DNA of 64,000 nt from Octopus vulgaris (GCA_951406725.2 OX597824.1:22444001-22508000); one strand, 5' to 3'. Positions 1,913 through 60,683 are shown, counted from the first letter of the stretch. Numbers and translations: made by a program. The notes: a model not told the origin generated them from the sequence alone.

Positions 1913-2316
1913 CTATTTCTTTACTACCCACAAGGGGCTAAACACAGAGAGGACAGACAAACGGATTAAGTCGATTAAATCGACCCCAGTGCGTAAATGG
2001 TACTTATTTAATCGACCCCGAAAGGATGAAAGGCAAAGTCGACCTCGGCGGAATTTGAACTCAGAATGTGAAGACAGACGAAATACCTATTTCTTTACTA
2101 CCCACAAGGGGCTAAACATAGAGGGGACAAAGACAGACAAACGAATTAAGTCGATTACATCGACCCCAGTGCGTAACTGGTACTTAATTTATCGACCCCG
2201 AAAGGATGAAAGGCAAAGTCGACCTCGGCGGAATTTGAACTCAGAACGTAACGGCAGACGAAATACAGCTAAGCATTTCGCCCGGCGTGCTAACGTTTCT
2301 GCCAGCTCGCCGCCTT
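1913..2316 (-). mobile_element. tRNA-derived SINE family B (Meta-like central domain), tandem dimer
   Basis: Minus-strand head GGCGGCGAGCTGGCAGAAACGTTAGC with B-box GAGTTCAAATTCC; central GCCTTTCATCCTTTCGGGGTCGATAAA; two body units. Confidence 0.85.
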
Positions 2317-11689: not shown

Positions 11690-13020
11690 AACCACTACAA
11701 AGCCAACTGATCTACATCCATGGCACTCTTGCAAAGAAATGCAATGTGTCCCTTTCCACGGTGTCCAGATCTGTGAACAGGAACCTTGGCATGACTAGCT
11801 ATATTCGATAATGCTGTCACCTCCTAACAGCCAAGGCCTAAGCAATCAGAGCTGAGAGATGCCCAAAGCTTCTGTCATTCATCAAGCATCAAGGTGCTGG
11901 AAAAACTCATTTATTTGAGGACGGAAGAAGTTCACTGTGGACACTTAGGTGAATCCTAGAAATTCTTGAGTGATTGCATACAACCCTTCTGATGTCCCCA
12001 CTGTGTTTGAGACTAAGAATCCTGCTTCTGTGATGGTATTTGGGGCTGTGGCAAGTGATGCGAGTGTCATAGAGCCACGCTTGATTGAGTCTGGTTTGAA
12101 GTATCTGGACATCCTGAAGAACTCCCTGTTACCTTGGATAGAGCAGAAGTTTGGGCTTGACAGTGTGGTGCTTATCCAGGATTCTGTACCATGCCATGAG
12201 TCAAAAGCAACACAGGAATTCCTAGGTGAGAAGGTACTATATCTTGTGAGGGCCAACATCTGGCCCAGTAAAAGCACAGATCTCAACCTTTTGATTACTT
12301 TTTATGGGGCGTACTTCAAACAAGGACTTCACCACACTTGACTGTCAATAGTTTGAAGACCTGAATTGTGTGTGCAACATGCAAAATCAAAATGGCAGAG
12401 GTTGCAGTGGCTGCAAAAAAATTTCATTTTCTTGCAGAGGCAGTAATTTCCCAAAAGGGTGATCATATTGAGTAATAAATGTTTTTGTTGTAAAAAAAAT
12501 GTTACATTAAAATTATATCTGTCTGCTACCTATTTCTTTACTACCCACAAGGGGCTAAACAGAGAGAGGACAAACAAGGACAGACAAACAGATTAAGTCG
12601 ATTATATTGACCCCAGTGTGTAACTGGTACTTATTTAATCGACCCCGAAAGGATGAAAGGCAAAGTCGACCTCGGCGGAATTTGAACTCAGAACATAAAG
12701 ACTGACGAAATACCTATTTCTTTACTACCCACAAGGGGCTAAATAGAGAGAGGACAAACAAGGACAGGCAAACAGATTAAGTCGATTATATTGACCCCAG
12801 TGTGTAACTGGTACTTATTTAATCGACCCCGAAAGGATGAAAGGCAAAGTCGACCTCGGCGAAATTTGAACTCAGAACGTAGTGGCAGACAAAATACCGC
12901 TTAGCATTTCACCCGGCATGCTAACGTTTCTGCCAGCTTGGTCTACTACCATTATTTTAGTATTTATAACCAGTTTTTTGTATCATAAAAATTGTCTTAA
13001 TTTATCTGCAAGACCCTATA
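11690..13020 (+). mobile_element. Degenerate Tc1/mariner-superfamily (maT/DD37D-like) transposon
   Basis: KKFTVD, KNPASVMVFGAVASD, LLPW, IQDSVPCH, WPSKSTDLN motifs; TIR-like end ..GCAAGACCCTATA at ~13020. Confidence 0.8.
12527..12940 (-). mobile_element. SINE family B tandem dimer
   Basis: Same head, body and junction as 1913-2316. Confidence 0.9.
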
Positions 13021-34822: not shown

Positions 34823-34886
<64 letters not shown>

Positions 34887-34891
<5 letters not shown>

Positions 34892-35093
34892 ATCCAAACG
34901 TGAACAAAGAGGAAACACAACAACGCGAGGACGTGGAACAAGTATAGTGCTATTGGACGCTCAGGAAAGGAAAGAAAGAAGGAGAATTTAACATTTCGAG
35001 CGGAGCTCTTCGTCAGAAACATAGAAAAAGGAAAAGTCCAAGGAAGGGAAGACGGAGAAAGAAAATCACCAACGATACACACGTGGTCACATA
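34887..35093 (-). mobile_element. Solo Penelope-type terminal repeat related to the 36786 repeat, with hammerhead motif (34987-35020)
   Basis: (TA)n|GTTAATCCAAAC terminus; minus strand TTT-CTGACGA-AGAGC-TCC-GCTC-GAAATGTT-AAA. Confidence 0.75.
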
Positions 35094-35096
35094 TTG

Positions 35097-35698: not shown

Positions 35699-36151
35699 AT
35701 ATAGGGAAAATAAGAAAGGTATAGATTAATGAAATAATGACACAGAAGACAGGAGAAAAGGAATAAGGAGATGAAGAAAGAGGAGAAAAAAGAAGCATTA
35801 AAATTCACAGTTCAACTTTTCGATCTTCTAGAAATAAGTCCGTAAGTCTTTAGGTGCAGTCCTGTGTAAATCTATGTAGGTTAAAGTCCTAATAGTGTAA
35901 ATATCCAGAAATAGATGTGAACGTATCAACATTCAATAACAGGATGGTAGCAGAGGTAGCTATTAAGTGGTAAAGAGAAAGAAAAATAAATAGGAGTAGC
36001 TGTGTGGTAAGTAGCTTGCTTACCAGCCACATGGTTCTGGTTTCAGTCCCACTGCATGGCAACTTGGGCAAGAGTCCTATACTATAGACTTGCCCGCCAA
36101 CCAAAGCCTTGTGAGTAGGTTTAGCAGACAGAAACTGAAAGAAGCCTGTCG

Positions 36152-36188
<37 letters not shown>

Positions 36189-36727
36189 GTATAAAAAATA
36201 TATATAAAAATACAAAATGGGACAAGAACGCAAAACACTCAAATAGACGACAAAAAAAACGGATGGGTCATTCGAAGCTTCTAATCCTCGCAATTTTGGC
36301 TCGCAATTTTGGCTGATTAATCTTGAGATCGCTCCGATCTGGCCAGCCCCAAGGAAAAACTAAGCTACGAGAATTAGATTTCTTGGAAAAAGGATCGAAT
36401 GTATACGAAACAAGGACAGAAAAACGGACGATGGCACACGAATATAAATACAAAAAACAATAATAGTAATAACAGGACAAAAACAGTGGGTGTCTTACGA
36501 CTTAAGACAGTTCAACTTAGCTTAGCTGGCGTATTTGGAAGCCTTACGGCAGACGAAGAAATCGATGTTGTGGCAGCCGAAAGGCTAGTTGACTGGCGGT
36601 CACATGAGAGGAGAAGAGAGAAAAAAAGAGAAAAAAAAAGGGGCAAAGGAATCAAAGAGAGAGAGAAAAAGAGGGACAAAGGCACCAAAGAGGGGGAGAA
36701 GAGAGAGAAAGCAGGAATATATGTATA

Positions 36728-36789
<62 letters not shown>

Positions 36790-36900
36790 ATCCAAACAAG
36801 AAAACACAGAAAAAAAGGGAAAAAAAGAAAAAAAAACACAGCAACGCAGGACGTGGAACAATTAAAGTATTATTGACGCTCAGGAAAGAAGGGAAGGAGG

Positions 36901-36935
36901 GTTTAACGTTTCGAGCGGAGCTCTTCGTCGGAAAC
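36901..36935 (-). ncRNA. Minimal hammerhead motif (CCGACGA core) in the 3' pseudo-LTR
   Basis: GTTT-CCGACGA-AGAGC-TCC-GCTC-GAAACGTT-AAAC. Confidence 0.7.
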
Positions 36936-37084
36936 AAGGAGAAGGAAAGATCCCAAGGAGGGAAGACAGAGGAGACAATATTTGAGCTGGTGGTGCTTAA
37001 GAGATCACATGTTGAAAAGAACAGAATTTGGAGGTAGTTGAAAAATGGTTTTATAATGCAAGAGAGTTCCAAAAAAAGGGAATG

Positions 37085-37117
<33 letters not shown>

Positions 37118-37199
37118 TTTTGGTGAATAGATAATGACAAAGCCAGCTGTGGTGATGACTACTAGCTGTTTGTGTCAAGGTAGGTCAAAGACAGGTCAA

Positions 37200-39420
37200 A
37201 AAACATCATATGTGTGTGTTGTTTGTAGTGTGTGTGTGCGTGTGTGTGTTCGTGTGTGTATGCGTAGAGTGTGGGTGTGTGGCGTAACCCTAGTACGTGT
37301 GTGGTTGTACGTGCGTGTGTGTGTGTGTAGGGGGATGTATATGTGGGTTCATTTGTGTGAGAGTGTATGTATGTGCGTGTATGTGTGCGTTTGTATGTGT
37401 TTGTGTGTATGTGTGCGTGCGCGGATGGGTGTATATTGTGTATGTATATCTGTCGGTGTGTATGTGAGTTTGTGTGTGTTTGTACGCGTGTATGTGTGTG
37501 TGAGTGTATAGTATATATATATATGTAAATGTGTGTGTGTGTGCGTGTGTGTGTACGTGTGTGCGAGTGAATGTATGTATATATGTGTGCGTGTGTGTTG
37601 TGTACAATGTAGGGGCTTATATGTGTGTTTATATGTGAGTGTGTATGTATGTGTGTATGTGTGTGTATGTATATATATGCATGTGTGTATGTATGTGTGT
37701 ATGTGTATGTGTGTATGCATGCGTGTGTGTATGTATGTATGTGTGTGTGTGTGTATGTGTGTGTGTATGTATGTGTGTGTTTGTGTGTATGTGTGTGTGT
37801 ATGTATGTATGTACGTACGTATGTATGTATGTGTGTGTGTATGTATGTATGTACGTATGTGTGTATGTATGTATTTTTGCATGCGTGTATGTGCGTGTGT
37901 GTACATATGTATGTTTATGTATGTGCGTGTATGTATGTAGTGTATGTATGTGTGTGTGTATGTATGTATGTGTGCATGCGTGTATGTGTGCATGTGTGTG
38001 TGTTTGTATGTATGTATATATATGTGTGTGTATGTGTGTGTGTATGTATGTATATGTGTGTGTATGTATGTATTTGTGTGTATGTATGTATCTATGTATG
38101 TATGTGTGTTTGTATGTGTGTATATATTATGTATGTGTGTATGCATATGTGTATGTGTGTGTATGTGTGTATGTATGTGTATGTATGTATGGATGGGTGT
38201 ATGTGTGTAAGTGTGTGTGTGTATGTGTATGTGTATGTATGTATATGTACGCGTGTGTGTATGTATGTATGTGTGTATAGTATGTGTGTGTGTGTATGTA
38301 TGTATGTGTGCATGCGTGTATGTGTGCATGTGTGTGTCTGTATGTATGTATGTATATGTATGTGTGTGTGTATGTATATATGTGTCAATGTATGTATGTG
38401 TGTATGTATGTGTGTATGTGTGTGTGTATGTATGTGTATGTATGTAAGTGTGTGTGTATGTATGTGTGTATGTATGTGTGTGTGTATGTATGTGTATATA
38501 TGTATGTATGTGTGCATGCGTGTATGTGTGTATGTGCGTGTGTGTACGTATGTGTGTATATGTATGTGTGTGTATGTATGTATATGTATGTATGTGTGTA
38601 TGCATATATGCATGTGTGTATGTGTGTGTGTATGTATGTGTGTATTTGTGTATGTGTGTGTGTATGTATGTATGTATATGTATGTGTGTGTATGTGTTTG
38701 TGTGTATGTGTGTGTATGTATGTTTGTGTGTATGTGTGTATCTGTGTATGTATGTGTGTGTGTATGTATGTATGTGTGTGTGTACGTGTGTGTATGTATG
38801 CATGTATGTATGTGTGCGTGCGTGTGTGTGTGGGTATGTGTGTGTATGTATGTGTGTATGTATATGTATGTGTGTGTATGTATGTATGTGTGTATGTATG
38901 TGTGTGTGAATGTATGTATGTGTGCATATGTGTATGTATGTGTGTATGTATTTTTTGTGTGTATGTATGTGTGTGTATGTATGTATGTGTGTGTGTATGT
39001 ATGTATGAATGTATGTATGTATGTATGAATGTATGTATGTATGTGTGCGTGTGTATGTATGTATGTATGTATGAATGTATCTATGTATGTATTATGTGTG
39101 TGTACGTATGTATGTGTGTGTGTGAATGTATACGTGTGGGTGGGTTTGGAGTTGTGTGGGCGTAAGGTACATGTGCATGTGTGCGCTTATGTGCGTGTAT
39201 CTGTGCGTCCCAGCTAGGTGTTTATAGGAGTGTGCGTATCTGTATGAGTATTGTCCCTGGTGTGTGTGCACGGGCATGTGTGTGTGTGCACGTGGGTGTG
39301 TGTGTGTGGGGGGGTGTATGGGTGTGGAAGTATGTGTGCGTACATGTGCATGTACGTTGTGTGTGTGTGGTGTGTTGGGAGTAGGTGTGTTCGTGGGTAC
39401 GTGAGTATGTGTGTGTGACT
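37200..39420. repeat. Compound (TG)n/(TATG)n microsatellite tract within the Penelope 3' region
   Basis: Direct reading; the first ~700 bp recur in the other pseudo-LTR. Confidence 0.95.
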
Positions 39421-39531
39421 GCATAAGGACAATTGTAAAAATTTTAAAAAATTAAAAATAAATAATAATTAATAAACAAAAAATAAAAAATAAAAAATAA
39501 AAGATGCGGGGGGAGAAGTGGAGCGCAGTCA

Positions 39532-42395
39532 CTAAGAGGAGGGAGCTGTGTTGAGTCCGTGTGGGGTTAGAGTCCGTAGAAGGAATATGAACCGTTGTTC
39601 CAAGTGAAGCCTAGATTGGGGAGAGCCGTTGTGTGGGGCAAGACCAAACACCGAGATGTCATCGGGGGAATGGCTGGCTGAGCGGAAGTGCCGTGCGACG
39701 GGAGAATTGGAAAATAGACGAACATCCCGCAGATGCTCGGTGAGTCGGTCTGACAACCGGCGTCCCGTCTGTCCTATATACAGCATCCTGCAGCGGTTGC
39801 ATTTTATGCAGTATATGAGTCCAGACGAGGTGCACGTAAAGGAATACCCGATACGTACAGTTCGCCGGTTGGAACCGGTGACAGCAGTGGTGTTGGTGAT
39901 GAAGAGGCAGGTGTTGCAGCGGGATCTGGAGCATGGGAAGGATCCGAGTGGGGCCGAGGGGGAAGAAGGGAGGGTGCTACGGACCAGGAGGTCGCGTAGA
40001 TTCCGGGCTCGTTTGAAGGAGGACAGGGGTGGGTTGGGGAAAATGGGGTGGGTCGTGGAATCGAGCTGGAGACGACGGAAGGCACGAAGTATCTTCCGAC
40101 GAAGGGGTAGAGTAGAGGGGTGGAAAAGGAGGGGAAAGGGGGTGCGGTTGGGGGGTGGGTGATTGGAAGGAGAAAGGGCGGTGGTGCGGTCGATGCGACG
40201 AGCGCGGGCGAGGGCGTTCAAGACCAGGGTAGGTGGGTATCCTCGAAGCCTGAACAGGCGGGCCAGGTATTGAGACTGGGTCTCGAAATCCTGGTCGCGG
40301 CTGCACAAGCGTCGGAGGCGGAGGAACTGGGAGTAGGGGATAGCCCGTTTGGTGTGGAAGGGATGGGAGGAGGAGAAGTTGAGATAGAGGTGGGAATCCG
40401 TGGGTTTGAAGAAGGCGGAGGTGGTGAGAGAGTGGGAGGGGTGGTCGATGCTGAGTGAGATATCTAGGAAGTTAACGGAAGTATTGGATATGGTGGAAGT
40501 GAATTGTAGAGAGGGGTGGAAGTTAGAGAGGAAAGAGATGAAGTGGCAGAGTTGTTCGCGGGAAAGGGAGGTGGCGCCTATACAGTCGTCTATGTAACGA
40601 CCGTATAGTTCTGGGGTCGGCCCGGAGAATTGGGAGAATACTTGGGCCTCAATGTAGCAAACAAAGAGATTGGCGAAATTGGGACCCATTCTCGTTCCCA
40701 TCGCGACCCCGGACACCTGTTGGTACTTTTCCCCGGCGAACGTGAAACAGTTGAGGGTTAGGACGAGCTCTGCCAGGCGGAGGAGGGTGGGGGTGCTAGG
40801 AGTGGGGTCGGGGCGACGGTCGAGGAAGTGTTGGAGAGCTAGGAGACCGTCGTTGTGGGGAATCACCGTATACAGTGATTTGATGTCAAGGGTGAAGAGG
40901 AGGTGAGAGGGGCTGGAAGGGAAGGAAAAGGAATTGAAGAGACGGAGGGTGTGGTTGGTATCATGTATGTTGGAAGGGAGGGCTTTGACTAAAGGGGACA
41001 GGATGCAGTCGAGGTATAGGGAAATGTGTTCAGTAGGGCAATTACAGGCGGAAACAATGGGGCGGCCAGGCGTATTGGGCTTATGAATTTTGGGAAGGAA
41101 ATAGATGGTGGAGGTGCGGAGTGTGCGGACGATGAGGTTGGTGGCGGTGGGGGGGAGAGCAGAAGAAGAGATGAGATCGCGGATAGTGGAGGCCACTCGC
41201 TGTTGGTAGGAAGAGGTGGGATCAGAGGGGAGGAGGCGATAGAAGAGGGGATTTTGAAGCTGGCTGAGTGCTTCCTCCCTGTAGAGATCCGCGCGCCATA
41301 CCACCACTGCTCCGCCTTTGTCCGCCGATTTGATGACAATGTCATTGCGGCGACGGAGGTGGCGAAGGGCAACCAATTCAGCCTGTGTGAGGTTGTCTCG
41401 GAGAGGTCTTTCTTTAAAATCAAACTGGTTTACCAACGCGTTGCAGTCGTTCACAGACGAGTCTAGGCTACTGAATTGGCCCGGGGGCGGCGTCCAGTTT
41501 GATGGGCGGCGCCCCAGCTCCAAAGAGCAATCCTGATTATCGTGACGCTGCGGAGACGCGTGGTAGAAGGCGCAAAGTTTGAGGCGGCGCAGGAACTGGT
41601 TGACGTCCGTCCGAGTCTCGAATTCGTCACAGTGGCGCGTGAGAGGCGTGAAGCGGAGTCCCTTACTGAGGAGAGAGCGCTCGGCTGCAGAGAGGGGGAG
41701 ATTGGGGGGGTATAGTGACAACAGTGCGAGGAAGCGGGGTGGTGGGATGAGTGGGGTCGGGAAGAGGGGGTGCAGAGGTGTGGGGTGGTTAGGTGAAGTG
41801 GGGGTAGGCGTAGAAAGGTCAGGGTGGGGTGTGTGTTGGTCCGTGGAGGGGGAAGGGGGAGGGGTGGAGATAATCGGGGGAGCTGGAGGGGAGGAAGAGG
41901 AGGATGTGGAGGAGAGGGGAGAGGAAGGAGGTGAAGGTTTGAGGAGGTGGTGGAGTTTTTGTTTTTTGTGTGTGTGAGGAAATTATGAAGCTGGTGGTTG
42001 AGATTAAGAATGAAGCGGAGAATAGGTTGGGTGAAGAGTGGAGGGCAGAGGGAGGAGAGAAGAAGGTAAGCTTGGGGAAGTAGGTGGTCAAAGGAGTGGA
42101 GAAGAGAGCGGATGGAACGGATGGTAGCACGGATGAGGAGGCGTGAAGTGCGGGCGAGGGTGGGTTCGATGAAGGGGGAGGAATAGGGGGTGGCGTGGAA
42201 CTTCAAGAGGAAACCACGGGGTGTGACCTGATAGCGGAGGCAACGGCTGAGGAAGGAGAGATGGCTAGAGTGGCGAGTTTTTTTTAAAAAGTAAGTGAGA
42301 GAGTTTTTTTGCGGGTTCTAAGCATTGGGGGGGGGAGCGAGAAAGCGGCTAAGAAGGGATTGAAGGTGTTGGACGAACGAGTGCAAGTCAGGCAT
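39532..42395 (-). CDS. Penelope-like polyprotein (RT + GIY-YIG endonuclease); N-terminal part frameshifted
   Basis: ADKGGAVVV, LPKIHK, RPIVS, LDIKSLYT, GVAMGT, RYIDD, FLDI; Cys linker CSRSRCNTC; LIYCIKC..C..LYIGQT.R..RLTEH; open 39532-41721; ATG at 42395 with shifts near homopolymer runs. Confidence 0.92.
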
Positions 42396-42790
42396 GTTGT
42401 GAAGTGGTGAAGGTGTATGTAGGTGTAAGTGGTGGTGATGACACAAGTGGAAGAATGGAGGTGGAAGAAGAAAGGTAAAGAAGGAAAAAGGAAAAATACA
42501 GGGAGATAAGTTCAGGAAAAGAGTTCAGGAGAAAGTTAAATAAGAGTCACGGACAGATTTTTTTGATTTCCAATCACGAGTTCAGTGGCGTACTCCGGAA
42601 GGATGGTAACAGTAATCCGTAGGTGTAAAAATCCAGGAATTGGTATCCAAGGCGCTCGGTATCCGTGTGAGCGTGCGGTATATAAAGTTAATCCAAACAA
42701 GAAAACACAGAAAAAAAGAAAAAAACACAGCAACGCAGGACGTGGAACAATTAAAGTATTATTTGACGCTCAGGAAAGAAGGGAAGGAGG

Positions 42791-42825
42791 GTTTAACGTT
42801 TCGAGCAGAGCTCTTCGTCGGAAAC
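42791..42825 (-). ncRNA. Minimal hammerhead motif (CCGACGA core) in the 5' pseudo-LTR
   Basis: Same as 36901-36935 except for one loop base. Confidence 0.7.
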
Positions 42826-43435
42826 AAGGAGAAGGAAAGATCTCAAGGAGGGAAGACAGAGGAGACAATATTTGAGCTGGTGGTGCTTAAGAGATCACAT
42901 GTTGAAAAGAACAGAATTTGGAGGTAGTTGAAAAATGGTTTTATAATGCAAGAGAGTTCCAAAAAAAGGGAATGCCTGTGTGTGTGTGTGTGTGTGTGTG
43001 TGTGCAAGATGACAAGTGTGTTTGTGCGTGCGTGTGTGTGTGTATATTTTTGGTGAATAGATAATGACAAAGCCAGCTGTGGTGATGACTACTAGCTGTT
43101 TGTGTCAAGGTAGGTCAAGGACAAGTCAAAAAACATCATATGTGTGTGTTGTTTGTAGTGTGTGTGTGTGTGTGTGTGTGTGTTCGTGTGTGTATGCGTA
43201 GAGTGTGGGTGTGTGGCGTAACCCTAGTACGTGTGTGCTTGTACGTGCGTGTGTGTGTGTAGGGAGATGTATATGTGGGTTCATTTGTGTGAGAGTGTAT
43301 GTATGTGCGTGTATGTGTGCGTTTGTATGTGTTTGTGTGTATGTGTGCGTGCGCGGATGGGTGTATATTGTGTATGTATATCTGTCGGTGTGTATGTGAG
43401 TTTGTGTGTGTTTGTACGCGTGTATGTGTGTGTGA

Positions 43436-43471
<36 letters not shown>

Positions 43472-43474
<3 letters not shown>

Positions 43475-43849
43475 CGCAGGAGTGGCTGTGTGGTAAGTAG
43501 CTTGCTAACCAACCACACGGTTGCGGGTTCAGTCCCACTGAGTGGCATCTTGGGCAAGTGTCTTCTGCTATAGCCCCGGGCCGACCAATGCCTTGTGAGT
43601 GGATTTGGTAGACGGAAACTGAAAGAAGCCTGTCGTATATATGTATATATATATATGTTTGTATGTGTGTGTTTGTGTGTCTGTGTTTGTCCCCCTAGCA
43701 TTGCTTGACAACCGATGCTGGTGTGTTTACGTCCCCGTCACTTAGCGGTTCGGCAAAAAGAGACCGATAGAATAAGTACTAAAAGGTGGTGCTCCAGCAT
43801 GGCCGCAGTCAAATGACTGAAACAAGTAAAAGAGTAAAGAGTAAAGAGT
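43472..43849 (+). mobile_element. SINE family A inserted in the Penelope 5' pseudo-LTR
   Basis: Absent at the equivalent TA tract (~37510-37523) of the other repeat. Confidence 0.9.
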
Positions 43850-44059
43850 ATATGTAAATGTGTGTGTGTGTGTGCGTGTGTGTACGAGTGAATGTATGTA
43901 TATATGTGTGCGTGTGTGTAGGGGCTTATATGTGTGTTTATATGTGTGTGTGTGTATGTATGTGTGTATGTGTGTGTATGTGTATGTATGTATGTATATA
44001 TATGCGTGTGTGTATGTATGTATGTGTGTGTATGCATGCGTGTGTGTATGTATGTATGT

Positions 44060-44100
<41 letters not shown>

Positions 44101-44179
44101 TGTGTATGTATGTATGTATGTACGTATGTGTGTATGTATGTATTTTTGCATGCGTGTATGTGTGTATGTGCGTATGTAC

Positions 44180-44211
<32 letters not shown>

Positions 44212-44877
44212 GTACATATATATATATATTTATACATATACATATATGTACATATATATACATATATATATATATATACATGTATGTACGTATGTATGTA
44301 TGTATGTATGTAGGCATGTGTGTGTGTGTGCTTGTGTGTCTGTGTTTGTCTCCCAACATCACTTGACAACCGCCGGTGGTGTGTCTACATTGCTGTAACT
44401 TAGTGGTTCAGCAAAAGAGACCGACAGAGTAAGTACTAGGCTTACAAATAATAAATCCTGGGGTTAATTTGTTTGACTAAAGGCGGTGCTCCAGCATGGC
44501 TGCAGTCAAATGACTGAAACAAATGAAAAATAAAGAAAAAATAATAGAAAGATAGGTAGAGACAGTAAGAGAAGAAATTGAGGATTGGCATTAAGGATGA
44601 AATAAGGCACATAAGAATATAGTGTATAAAATAACCAAGAAGATAAATAGATAAATAAATATATATGGATAAATAAGAAGAGAGTAGCAGGAGGAGGAGG
44701 TAAAGGAAAATAACGTAAAAAAAACCCCAAAATATAATAAAAAGAAAGGAATTCAAAGAGAAGAGTACGCTCATACCACCATGGGAAGATTGAGCAGAGA
44801 TTAAAAATAATTTTGGTTTTGAAAAATTTAGTTTGTATTACCACTAGCTACTGTAATCTATACTATAATAATATAAT

Positions 44878-45057: not shown

Positions 45058-45221
45058 ACGCTGGAGTGGCTGAGTGGTAAGTAGCTTGCTTACCAACCAC
45101 ATGGTTCTGGGTTCAGTTCCACTGCATGGTACCTTGGGCAAGTGTCTTCTACTATAGCCTCGGGCCGACCAAAGCCTTGTGAGTGGATTTGGTAGACGGA
45201 AACTGAAAGAAGCCCATCGTA

Positions 45222-45222
<1 letters not shown>
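45058..45222 (+). mobile_element. SINE family A 5' half (3' halves at 46170-46385 and 46845-47072)
   Basis: Ends at (TA)n, followed by a Helitron. Confidence 0.8.
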
Positions 45223-45275
<53 letters not shown>

Positions 45276-53770: not shown

Positions 53771-55760
53771 GGCAATTTTTCTGAGTAACACCCGCATGAT
53801 TTTCACTTAGAAAGAAAGAAAAAAAATCTCGGACTTTTTGCGGGGTATCAAGTACCCTGACCTCCTATTGCCATTTTGGCAAATCCCTTATTTTGGTTCG
53901 GGAGAAGTGGTGGTGGTGGTGGTGGGGGCACACGGTCTCGGGTTCATTGGAATATTTTTTTTTGTTTTTTTTTCGTTGAATGAATTCCTGTGACATCCTA
54001 CCTAATATGCTATAAAACCCTTTTTGGTGTCCGAAAAACGGAGTGCGGTGAGGTGGAAGCCTCAGAAATTTCACCCACCCCTACCCCCGGCAATTTTTCA
54101 GAGTAACACCCGCATGATTTTCACTAAGAAAGAAAGAAAAAAAAAAAGAAAAAAGAAAAAAAAATCTCGGACTTTTTGCGGGGTATCAAGTACCCTGACC
54201 TCCTAATATGCTGCAAATCCCTTATTTTGGTTCGGGAGAAGTGGTGGTGGTGGTGGCTGGGGGGCACACGGTCCCGGGTTCATTGGAATTTTTTTTTGTT
54301 TTTTTTTCGTTGAATGAATTCCTGTGACATCCTAATATGCTATAAAACCCTTTTTGGTGTCCGAAAAACGGAGTGCGGTGAGGTGGAAGCCTCAGAAATT
54401 TCACCCACCCCTACCCCCGGCAATTTTTCAGAGTAACACCCGCATGATTTTCACTAAGAAAGAAAGAAAAAGAAAAAAGAAAAAAAAATCTCGGACTTTT
54501 TGCGGGGTATCAAGTACCCTGACCTCCTAATATGCTGCAAATTCCTTATTTTGGTTCGGGAGAAGTGGTGGTGGTGATGGGTGGGGGGCACACGGTCCCG
54601 GGTTCATTGGAATTTTTTTTTGTGTTTTTTTTTCGTTGAATGAATTCCTGTGACATCCTAATATGCTATAAAACCCTTTTTGGGGGTCCGAAAAACGGAG
54701 TGCGGTGAGGTGGAAGCCTCAGAAATTTCACACACCCCTGCCATCATTGGATCTTTTCACCTGCACGATTTTCACTAGGGAAAAAAAAAAGGTTAATATC
54801 TAGATCCGCACCCGGTGGGAAAAATGAGATCCGCACCCGGTGGGAAAAATGGAAACGAAAATGTGTAACAGTTGTAAGGCATCGTATATTGACGGAATAA
54901 GACGGGAAAAAAGCGCGCTGACAAACGGGGGGGGGGGGGGCTCGGGAAATTCCCAGGATCAACCGTAGAGGATCCACGCCCAGGTGGCAAAAATGGAAAG
55001 AAATATGTGTAACAGGTGTAAGGCATCGTATATTGAAGGAATATGACGAAAAAAAGCGCGCTGACAAACGGGGGGGGGGGGGCTCGGAAAATTGCCTACG
55101 ATTTAAAGAAAAATTTACCATCAATTTTCAGCATTTTAAACGCATTTCACACACATAGCCCAATGTCATAATTCAAAACTAACGCAGCGAAAATTTTGAA
55201 AAGTTCCCCCAGTTCTGAAAAAAATCGATAAATTCGACATGGGGTCGCGAATCAGAAACACAATGGTGAAAATTGATGGTAAATTTTTCTTTAAATCGTA
55301 GGCAATTTTCCGAGCCCCCTCCCCCCTGTTTGTCAGCGCGCTTTTTTTCGTCATATTCCTTCAATATACGATGCCTTACACCTGTTACACATATTTTTTT
55401 CCATTTTTGCCTCTACGGTTGATCCTGGGAATTTCCCGAGCCCCCCCCCCCCGTTTGTCAGCGCGCTTTTTTCCCGTCTTATTCCGTCAATATACGATGC
55501 CTTACAACTGTTACACATTTTCGTTTCCATTTTTCCCACTGGGTGCGGATCTCATTTTTCCCACCGGGTGCGGATCTAGATATTAACCAAAAAAGAAAAT
55601 TCCAATGAATCCGCGACGGATTTCCCTAACCCTGAAAACATCAATGGGGGGTGTGGATGGGTGAAATTTCGGTTCCGAGTTTCCGAGGCTTCCACTTCAC
55701 CCCATTCCGTTTTTCGGACCCCAAAAAGGGTTTTGCAGTATATTAGGATGTCACAGGGGT
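53771..55760. mobile_element. Foldback-like element: three ~320-bp tandem units plus long inverted arms
   Basis: Units ~53771-54088, ~54089-54418 and ~54419-54740; inverted arms ~54791-55130 and ~55267-55588; 55655-55760 is an inverted partial unit. Confidence 0.8.
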
Positions 55761-60073: not shown

Positions 60074-60683
60074 CATTTCTTTATTGCCCACAAGGGGGGG
60101 GGGCTAAACATAGACGAGACAAACAAGGACAGACAAAAGGATTAAGTCGATTACACCGACCCCAGTGCGTAACTGGTACGTATTTAATCGACCCCGAAAG
60201 GATGAAAGGCAAAGTAGACCTCGGCGGAATTTGAACTCAGAACGTAGCGGCAAACGAAATACCTATTTCTTTACTGCCCACAAGGGGCTAAACACAGAGA
60301 GGACAAGCAAGGACAAACAAACCGATTAAGACGATTACATCGACCCTAGTGCGTAACTGGTACTTAATTTATCGACTCCGAAAGGATGAAAGGCAAAGTC
60401 GACCTCGGCGGAATTTGAACTCAGAACTTAGCGGCAGACGAAATACCTATTTATTTACTGCCCCACAAGGGGCTAAACACAGAGAGGACAAGCAAGGACA
60501 AACAAACGGATTAAGACGATTACATCGACCCCAGTGCGTAACTGGTACTCAATTTATCGACCCCGAAAGGATGAAAGGCAAAGTCGACCTCGGCGGAATT
60601 TGAACACAGAACGTAGCGGCTGACGAAATACGGCTACGCATTTCGCCCGGTGTGCTAATGACTCTATCAGTTCGCTGCCCTTA
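60074..60683 (-). mobile_element. SINE family B tandem trimer
   Basis: One head and three bodies joined at AAATAG|GTATTTCG. Confidence 0.9.

What the first reader, a model, noticed from the sequence alone, without database searches (positions are those of the whole stretch)
36786..44170. Young Neptune-like Penelope element carrying ~2 kb of microsatellite as part of its own 3' region
Seen: between the ORF stop (39532) and the hammerhead-bearing terminus lies a compound CA/CATA tract. Its irregular unit pattern from ~37200-37900 recurs in the other pseudo-LTR (43135-43440, 43850-44170), so that part was copied with the element rather than expanding afterwards. Known: the Cys-rich RT-EN linker is characteristic of Neptune-type elements. 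Inference: a retroelement that inserts into (TA)n and also exports long TG/TATG arrays, a possible engine for the genome's simple-repeat content.
Basis: partly seen in the sequence, partly recalled or inferred. Interest (0 to 1): 0.72.

Follow-up and report, generated by a model that had tools for sequence, protein, structure and literature searches.

The report
Penelope retroelement carrying 2-kb microsatellite cargo
This jumping gene, in a probable octopus genome, carries about 2,000 bases of CA/CATA repeat inside its own tail, and the same tract sits in dozens of its scattered copies, so it spreads long microsatellites, but it likely supplies only a small share of the genome's simple repeats.

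Summary
Confirmed. The locus is a Neptune-like Penelope element (minus strand): RT plus C-terminal GIY-YIG, a 1.9-kb CA/CATA tract after the stop, a minimal hammerhead motif near the end, and a 5'-truncated second copy upstream. The tract belongs to the element. 31 of 39 dispersed copies show stop, tract and terminus in order. Even the regular central part is colinear in 25 of 26 testable copies, and its similarity tracks ORF identity (Spearman 0.85). Termini abut (TA)n in 46 of 48 copies. A much younger sister family (40 of 40 top hits about 100% identical) and a third lineage have their own CA-rich 3' tracts. The 'engine' claim is mostly not supported. In 1 Mb of random genome (9.9% simple repeat), 0 of 100 stretches held this family's tract. 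The sister family gave 3.6% of repeat bases, including the two largest blocks. This copy is frameshifted and none of the 39 has a whole ORF. Penelope elements carrying microsatellites are published for shrimp. New variant of a known kind.

The parts
36717..36785 (.). (TA)n target microsatellite at the element's 3' end
   Evidence: (TA)n flank in 26 of 28 and 20 of 20 other copies
36786..37210 (-). 3' terminus / pseudo-LTR core, with a short (TG)14 run
   Evidence: 1,911 first-look candidates genome-wide, top 40 at 94-100%
36901..36931 (-). minimal type-I hammerhead motif (C at core position 4, extra base after position 9, 4-bp stem II, palindromic remnant of stem III); cleavage untested
   Evidence: compared with the description in PMC4209133
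37211..39124 (-). compound CA/CATA tract inside the 3' region; sense strand 47% A, 34% C, 3% G; predicted almost unpaired as RNA
39125..39531 (-). ORF-proximal 3' region: irregular CA-rich stretch and T-rich run
   Evidence: anchors M1/M2 found at 84-100% identity in most of the 39 copies
39532..41982 (-). 816-codon frame: GLRF, DKGG, RT core (YIDD), CX4CxxC linker, GIY-YIG with CCHH residues
   Evidence: RVT_1 E 0.0016 and GIY-YIG E 0.0079, both under Pfam cut-off; 473 homologues, best 55%
41463..42317 (-). N-terminal part of the same gene in another frame; frameshift in an A-run near 41960
   Evidence: the run has another length in all 13 other copies that cover it; mutation or homopolymer assembly error not resolved
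42400..42686 (-). 5' untranslated part of the main copy
   Evidence: anchor found at 94-99% in 7 other copies
42687..44170 (-). upstream 5'-truncated second copy (pseudo-LTR) that ends inside the tract; second hammerhead motif at 42791-42821
43473..43846 (+). SINE inserted later into a TA run of the upstream copy
   Evidence: SINE class recalled (octopus tRNA-derived SINE), not tested
35992..36158 (+). 5' half of an older SINE whose internal (TA)n likely received the insertion
   Evidence: 140 identities, 25 mismatches to the first half of the SINE at 43473
44294..44541 (+). 3' half of that older SINE
   Evidence: 174 identities, 34 mismatches to the second half of the SINE at 43473

Best explanation
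This is a Neptune-like Penelope retrotransposon whose 3' region contains a 1.9-kb CA/CATA tract shared, in order, by its dispersed copies, and the tract is likely copied from the element's RNA at each jump. Inferred cycle: a transcript starting in the upstream pseudo-LTR runs through ORF, tract and terminus; the hammerhead motif may trim it; the GIY-YIG domain with its Cys linker nicks (TA)n; the RT copies from the terminus inward and crosses the tract first. Most copies stop early, so many insertions are just terminus plus part of the tract between two TA runs, which is how new TG/TATG arrays are seeded. After insertion the tract changes by unit gain and loss faster than the ORF. The tract is most likely tolerated cargo: a low-complexity 3' region, ancestral to this clade, inflated by slippage. 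It adds a small share of all simple repeats (order of 1% for this family, a few % for the clade) but likely many of the longest CA/CATA blocks.
For: Shown: 31 of 39 ORF-end copies on many chromosomes have terminus and tract in order (two terminus matches are partial), spacing 1,136-4,270 nt, median 2,699, window 2,424. All 39 share 34-554 irregular tract 18-mers with the window, against at most 13 in 100 random stretches. The central 1,479 nt is colinear above the best of 20 block shuffles in 25 of 26 copies that have both flanking anchors, and this falls with ORF identity (Spearman 0.85, p 5e-8; copies are related, so p is optimistic). (TA)n flank: 26 of 28 and 20 of 20. Of 20 copies picked by terminus, 11 run into the tract, 9 of them end inside it, mean 385 tract bases. 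Sister family: 19 of 20 copies have a 2.66-2.92 kb CA-rich 3' region, and a tandem locus repeats every 6.19 kb with the tract inside the unit. Third lineage L205 has a 1.7-kb CA-rich region; a family at 64% protein identity (L220) has only about 0.75 kb of low-complexity 3' region. Random 1 Mb: 9.9% short-period repeat, 0 of 100 with this tract (95% bound about 10,300 copies), sister family 3,525 of 99,074 repeat bases and the two largest blocks. Known: TA targeting is tied to the linker and truncated partial tandems are typical; PLE target-primed RT shown in vitro for another clade (PMC11167929, first part read).
Against: No transcript spanning ORF, tract and terminus was seen, so RNA-level copying is inferred. 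The copies were the best-scoring hits, not a random draw. 3 of 39 copies keep only the ORF-proximal edge of the tract (L048, L052, L068) and L069 did not beat its shuffles. Copy counts are first-look candidates (551 ORF ends, 1,911 termini), lower bounds that may include relatives. The genome share rests on 1 Mb and two sister copies (95% range 680-20,000 copies). Old, decayed tracts would not be recognised, so the historic share could be larger. CA polarity on the sense strand in three lineages whose tracts barely align is not explained by neutrality alone.
Confidence: 0.82

Rival explanations
1. The tract is a selected RNA element: a long, G-poor, unpaired CA-rich spacer that helps the element (for example binding a CA-repeat protein such as hnRNP L, recalled, or holding the hammerhead and RT start away from the ORF).
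For: CA-rich sense-strand tracts in three lineages about 15-17% apart at the ORF end, although window and sister tracts align over only 34 nt near the hammerhead. Sense strand predicted 11% paired, against 81% for the other strand and 36% for ORF RNA. Length held at 2.66-2.92 kb in 19 sister copies.
Against: Length varies almost four-fold in this family and 1.7-3.3 kb among sister subfamilies. A more distant family does without a long tract (L220). The ORF is also C-rich and G-poor (42% C, 15% G), so a mutational bias could set the polarity. Constant length in very young copies needs no selection.
Confidence: 0.2
2. This clade is a main engine of the genome's simple-repeat content.
For: The two largest repeat blocks in 1 Mb of random sequence are sister-family tracts. 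PLEs are 6.83% and simple repeats 7.45% of the Octopus vulgaris genome (PMC13282606 supplement rows; used as a comparator). TE-driven seeding is published for snakes and shrimp.
Against: 0 of 100 random stretches hold this family's tract; the sister family gives 3.6% of repeat bases. The 13 related terminus hits in the first 800 kb are mostly short, about 0.1-0.25 kb, and only one leads into a tract. Of 14 TG-containing tracts of 300 nt or more in that sample, 3 were in a PLE (all one copy).
Confidence: 0.1
3. The tract arose locally by expansion after insertion, or the repeat pair is a segmental duplication or assembly artefact.
For: The genome is about 10% short-period repeat and the frameshift lies in a homopolymer run, so some assembly error is possible.
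Against: Colinear irregular and central tract in copies on many chromosomes with unrelated flanks, with graded divergence. Upstream pseudo-LTRs abut the 5' end in other copies too (L047, L056, L059, L062).
Confidence: 0.01

Closest known systems
[quoted passage not shown] 2021, PMC8557442: preprint passages and supplement part 54 seen)
   Same: Single RT + C-terminal GIY-YIG gene, GxKF-like and DKG motifs, CX2-5CxxC linker, CCHH residues, pseudo-LTR from a truncated tandem copy, hammerhead motif, microsatellite targeting. Linker-to-GIY spacing 24 residues, like the Neptune rows (about 25-27) and unlike the Nematis rows (about 7-10) of Fig. S2.
   Different: A 1.9-kb CA/CATA tract inside the 3' region is not mentioned in the passages seen. 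The octopus rows returned by the supplement search were Naiad_Obim, Naiad_Ovul and Hydra-1_Obim (first 2 places per term shown). Clade membership was not tested by a tree with named references.
Recently transposed Penelope elements carrying SSRs in Litopenaeus vannamei (Yuan et al. 2021, PMC7878876; section 8 read whole)
   Same: Penelope copies over 98% identical whose internal SSRs are syntenic, read as moved with the element, with later elongation.
   Different: There a two-copy example in a figure I could not see; motif, length and place in the element are not given in the text read. Here a kilobase compound tract at a fixed place, traced over 39 + 20 + 20 copies and three lineages.
Microsatellite seeding by CR1-L3 and Rex LINEs in snakes (Pasquesi et al. 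2018, PMC6050309; passages seen)
   Same: A retrotransposon's 3' end carries a microsatellite that is spread with each insertion.
   Different: There a short terminal AATAG tail explains a genome-wide motif expansion. Here the tract is internal, upstream of a unique 0.4-kb terminus, much longer, and a minor share of the total.
Minimal hammerheads of metazoan PLE pseudo-LTRs (Cervera and De la Pena 2014, PMC4209133; parts 1-2 of 4 read)
   Same: Extra base after position 9, G10.1-C11.1 pair, palindromic remnant of helix III, one motif per pseudo-LTR.
   Different: C at core position 4 in 31 of 33 rows; that variant is not named in the parts read. Activity untested.

Membership tests
EN+ Penelope-like element | [quoted passage not shown] | tested here: met
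   GLRF at 108, DKGG at 221, YIDD at 463, YIGQT after 728; Pfam hits weak; one frameshift in this copy
EN+ Penelope-like element | Pseudo-LTR made by a 5'-truncated tandem copy | tested here: met
   42687-44170 repeats 36786 to about 37900
EN+ Penelope-like element | Hammerhead motif in the pseudo-LTR | tested here: met
   Pattern match in both repeats and in most copies; not an Rfam hit among the listed rows; position-4 variant; cleavage not tested
EN+ Penelope-like element | 30-40 nt one-sided tail extension | not tested
   Both ends merge into TA/TG repeats; no analysis was run
Neptune clade | CX2-5CxxC linker between RT and EN, with long spacing to the GIY core | tested here: met
   CX4CxxC then 24 residues; compared by eye with Fig. 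S2 rows
Neptune clade | CCHH residues in the endonuclease | tested here: met
   CxxC before YIG at 728-731, His at about 750 and 765
Neptune clade | RT phylogeny groups with named Neptune references | not testable with these tools
   The 120 listed homologues carry no clade names and named references were not available as tool sequences; the paper itself found Neptune paraphyletic
Nematis clade | Same linker with short spacing to the GIY core | tested here: not met
   24 residues here against about 7-10 in the Nematis rows
Hydra clade | CxCX5C linker and no CCHH | tested here: not met
Naiad clade | Endonuclease N-terminal to the RT, no hammerhead | tested here: not met

The most novel reading that the evidence does not exclude
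A clade of octopus Neptune elements keeps, under selection, a kilobase unpaired CA-rich RNA spacer in its 3' region, rebuilt beyond recognition in each lineage but always on the same strand, and this clade is the main source of the genome's kilobase-long TG/TATG arrays.
Probability: 0.2. Interest if true: 0.65.

Novelty: new variant of a known kind. Interest (0 to 1): 0.42.

Why it matters
It is a clean, countable case of a retroelement exporting long compound microsatellites. The very young sister family offers hundreds of near-identical starting tracts, a natural experiment for measuring slippage in compound repeats. It also warns that repeat annotation will split these elements and book their 3' regions as 'simple repeat', and that microsatellite markers drawn from such tracts are multi-locus. 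It does not explain why octopus genomes are rich in simple repeats.

Tried and rejected
Rfam gave only sub-threshold microRNA-type matches to the repeats; no hammerhead among 150 listed rows of 165. RNA: no RNA holder listed. Contigs of 3 of 4 runs guessed to be RNA lie on 39130-39430, none spanning it whole; they show neither strand nor transcription and were not used as evidence; the junction of tract and stop codon stays untested. Local expansion or artefact: rejected. 36207-36716 as part of this element: rejected, it is a separate repeat of 84-88% identity with 5,409 candidates. Long complementary arms around the tract: none by inverted-repeat search (top 25 of 72 pairs all TA-driven) or by DUST-filtered self-blastn in window, sister or L205 3' regions (G-U pairing not tested). 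Homology of the tracts between lineages: L205 against window scores 584 against 383-456 for 15 shuffles, weak support; window against sister only 34 nt; left open. Preferential truncation inside the tract by microhomology: 9 of 20 copies end in it and 9 before it; not shown. L220 had no DNA match and was examined separately. Literature searches listed no paper describing this octopus tract; only listings were seen for most, Repbase and Dfam entries could not be searched, and preprint supplements were closed, so a curated consensus with the tract may exist. PMC12602865, PMC3124438, PMC9659126 and bioRxiv 2026.07.22.740005 were seen as passages and added nothing on internal tracts.

Full report
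Setting. The window is G000:C11:22444001-22508000 in a 2.80-Gb assembly of 227 contigs.

Observation. On the minus strand the element reads: truncated upstream copy (44170 to 42687), 5' region, gene (42317 to 39532), 3' region with the tract (39124 to 37211), terminus (to 36786), then (TA)n. The two repeats match at 95-96% by blastn, or 702 identities and 7 mismatches over the first 0.72 kb, and the irregular tract pattern is colinear across a later SINE insertion at 43473-43846. One percent between the pair would be roughly 1-3 million years at the rate implied in PMC13282606 (JC 0.09 = 25 My); this is rough, and the pair also differs by a 40-nt block that is polymorphic among copies (29 of 59). 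The whole insertion, with an unrelated 0.5-kb repeat at 36207-36716, lies between two complementary halves of an older SINE that meet at its internal (TA)n, which likely marks the target site.

Protein. The 816-codon frame has the PLE motifs GLRF, DKGG and YIDD, a CX4CxxC linker and a GIY-YIG domain with CCHH residues. 473 homologues were found, the best at 55%, none with a clade name. The linker is shared by Neptune and Nematis; the 24-residue spacing fits the Neptune rows of Fig. S2 in PMC8557442. The N-terminal part lies in another frame; the break is in an A-run whose length differs in all 13 other copies that cover it, so it is private to this copy or an assembly error. None of 39 other copies has a frame spanning the whole gene. 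A minimal hammerhead motif sits 115-145 nt from the terminus in both repeats, with C at core position 4 in 31 of 33 rows (features as in PMC4209133). Cleavage is untested.

Is the tract part of the element? A search with the ORF end gave 551 candidates; I took the 39 best non-self hits with 10 kb each. 31 show terminus, tract and stop in order (two with partial terminus matches), spaced 1,136-4,270 nt; 5 more show tract without a terminus match in range; 3 keep only its ORF-proximal edge. All 39 share 34-554 irregular tract 18-mers with the window, random stretches at most 13. The central 1,479 nt is inherited too: ordered unique 16-mers exceed the best of 20 block shuffles in 25 of 26 copies with both anchors, and the count falls with ORF identity (Spearman 0.85). 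Termini abut (TA)n in 26 of 28 and 20 of 20 copies. Of 20 copies chosen by terminus (20 of the 40 listed), 11 reach the tract, 9 end inside it and 2 cross it.

It is a clade trait. A random stretch (L097) held a sister family, 84-86% identical in protein. Its 40 best hits are all about 100% identical, 642 candidates, many with open frames of 884-1,009 codons. 19 of 20 fetched copies have a 2.66-2.92 kb CA-rich 3' region, and L221 is a tandem with a 6.19-kb period. Window and sister 3' regions align over only 34 nt. Of 20 loci picked with an outside protein, 17 of the first 19 were sister subfamilies (16 with a hammerhead 1.7-3.3 kb past the stop and CA-rich sequence between), one (L205) was a third lineage with a 1.7-kb CA-rich region, one (L220, 64% protein identity) had only about 0.75 kb of low-complexity 3' region, and the last was L221. 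The tree separates these lineages with strong support. On the sense strand the tract is 3% G and predicted 11% paired.

Is it an engine? 100 random 10-kb stretches, drawn from 25 of the large contigs, are 9.9% short-period repeat. None holds this family's tract (95% bound about 10,300 copies); one holds an 88-nt terminus. Candidate counts times observed tract lengths give 1-2 Mb, under 1% of about 280 Mb; the upper bound allows up to about 9% only if every copy were full length. The sister family supplies 3,525 of 99,074 repeat bases (3.6%) from two copies, which are the two largest blocks in the sample. So the clade is a minor contributor overall and probably a notable one among kilobase CA/CATA arrays. 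Old decayed copies would be missed.

Mechanism. Shown: anatomy, inheritance of the tract, TA targeting, truncation inside the tract, length change among copies. Inferred: transcription from the upstream pseudo-LTR through the tract, target-primed copying from the terminus inward (shown in vitro for a Poseidon element, PMC11167929 part 1), slippage as the source of length change. I favour tolerated cargo over function; the shared strand polarity keeps function open at about 0.2. RNA evidence was inconclusive.

Known work. Penelope copies carrying syntenic SSRs are reported in shrimp (PMC7878876 section 8) and LINE seeding in snakes (PMC6050309 passages). PLEs are 6.83% and simple repeats 7.45% of O. 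vulgaris. My searches listed no description of this octopus tract, but repeat libraries could not be checked. An earlier unreviewed note of this scan (e1-8868503) describes a PLE 3' region with a 1.5-kb microsatellite loop in this genome, probably the sister family; a sequence look-up with this terminus found no note. Verdict: real, new variant of a known kind, interest 0.42.

Noticed in passing
L097:1-3830; L182-L201; L221; L236: Very young sister Neptune family: 40 of 40 top hits about 100% identical, many long open frames, tandem arrays with a 6.2-kb period, own 2.9-kb CA-rich 3' region with two GC-rich segments.
   Followed up: partly
window 34880-35095; L086, L091, L112, L116, L130, L137, L152, L154, L238: Abundant 0.2-kb hammerhead-bearing repeat, 80-89% like this terminus, between TA runs, mostly ending at the same site and mostly with U at core position 4; about 10 per Mb of random sequence, so tens of thousands of copies.
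   Followed up: partly
window 36207-36716: Separate older 0.5-kb repeat (84-88% to other copies, 5,409 candidates) in the same TA tract; class not determined.
   Followed up: partly
window 35992-36158, 43473-43846, 44294-44541, 45060-45275: The local SINEs carry an internal TA/TG microsatellite that serves as a landing site, giving nested insertions: SINE, then PLE, then SINE. With SINEs far more numerous, they may seed more microsatellite than the PLE does.
   Followed up: no
L205:977-2870 (minus strand): Third lineage with a more degenerate CA-rich 3' region, followed directly by another related terminus in the same TA/CA run.
   Followed up: partly
L220:960-1710 (minus strand): Distant family (64% protein identity) with a short pyrimidine-rich 3' region, a 25-nt tandem unit and an altered hammerhead core.
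   Followed up: no
window 53809-55577: 324-nt tandem repeat (2.8 copies) followed by two 25-nt repeats that look like reverse complements of each other at 54802 and 55528.
   Followed up: no
window 1913-2266, 12527-12878, 60100-60631: Dispersed family of about 185-nt tandem units, 2-3 copies per site.
   Followed up: no
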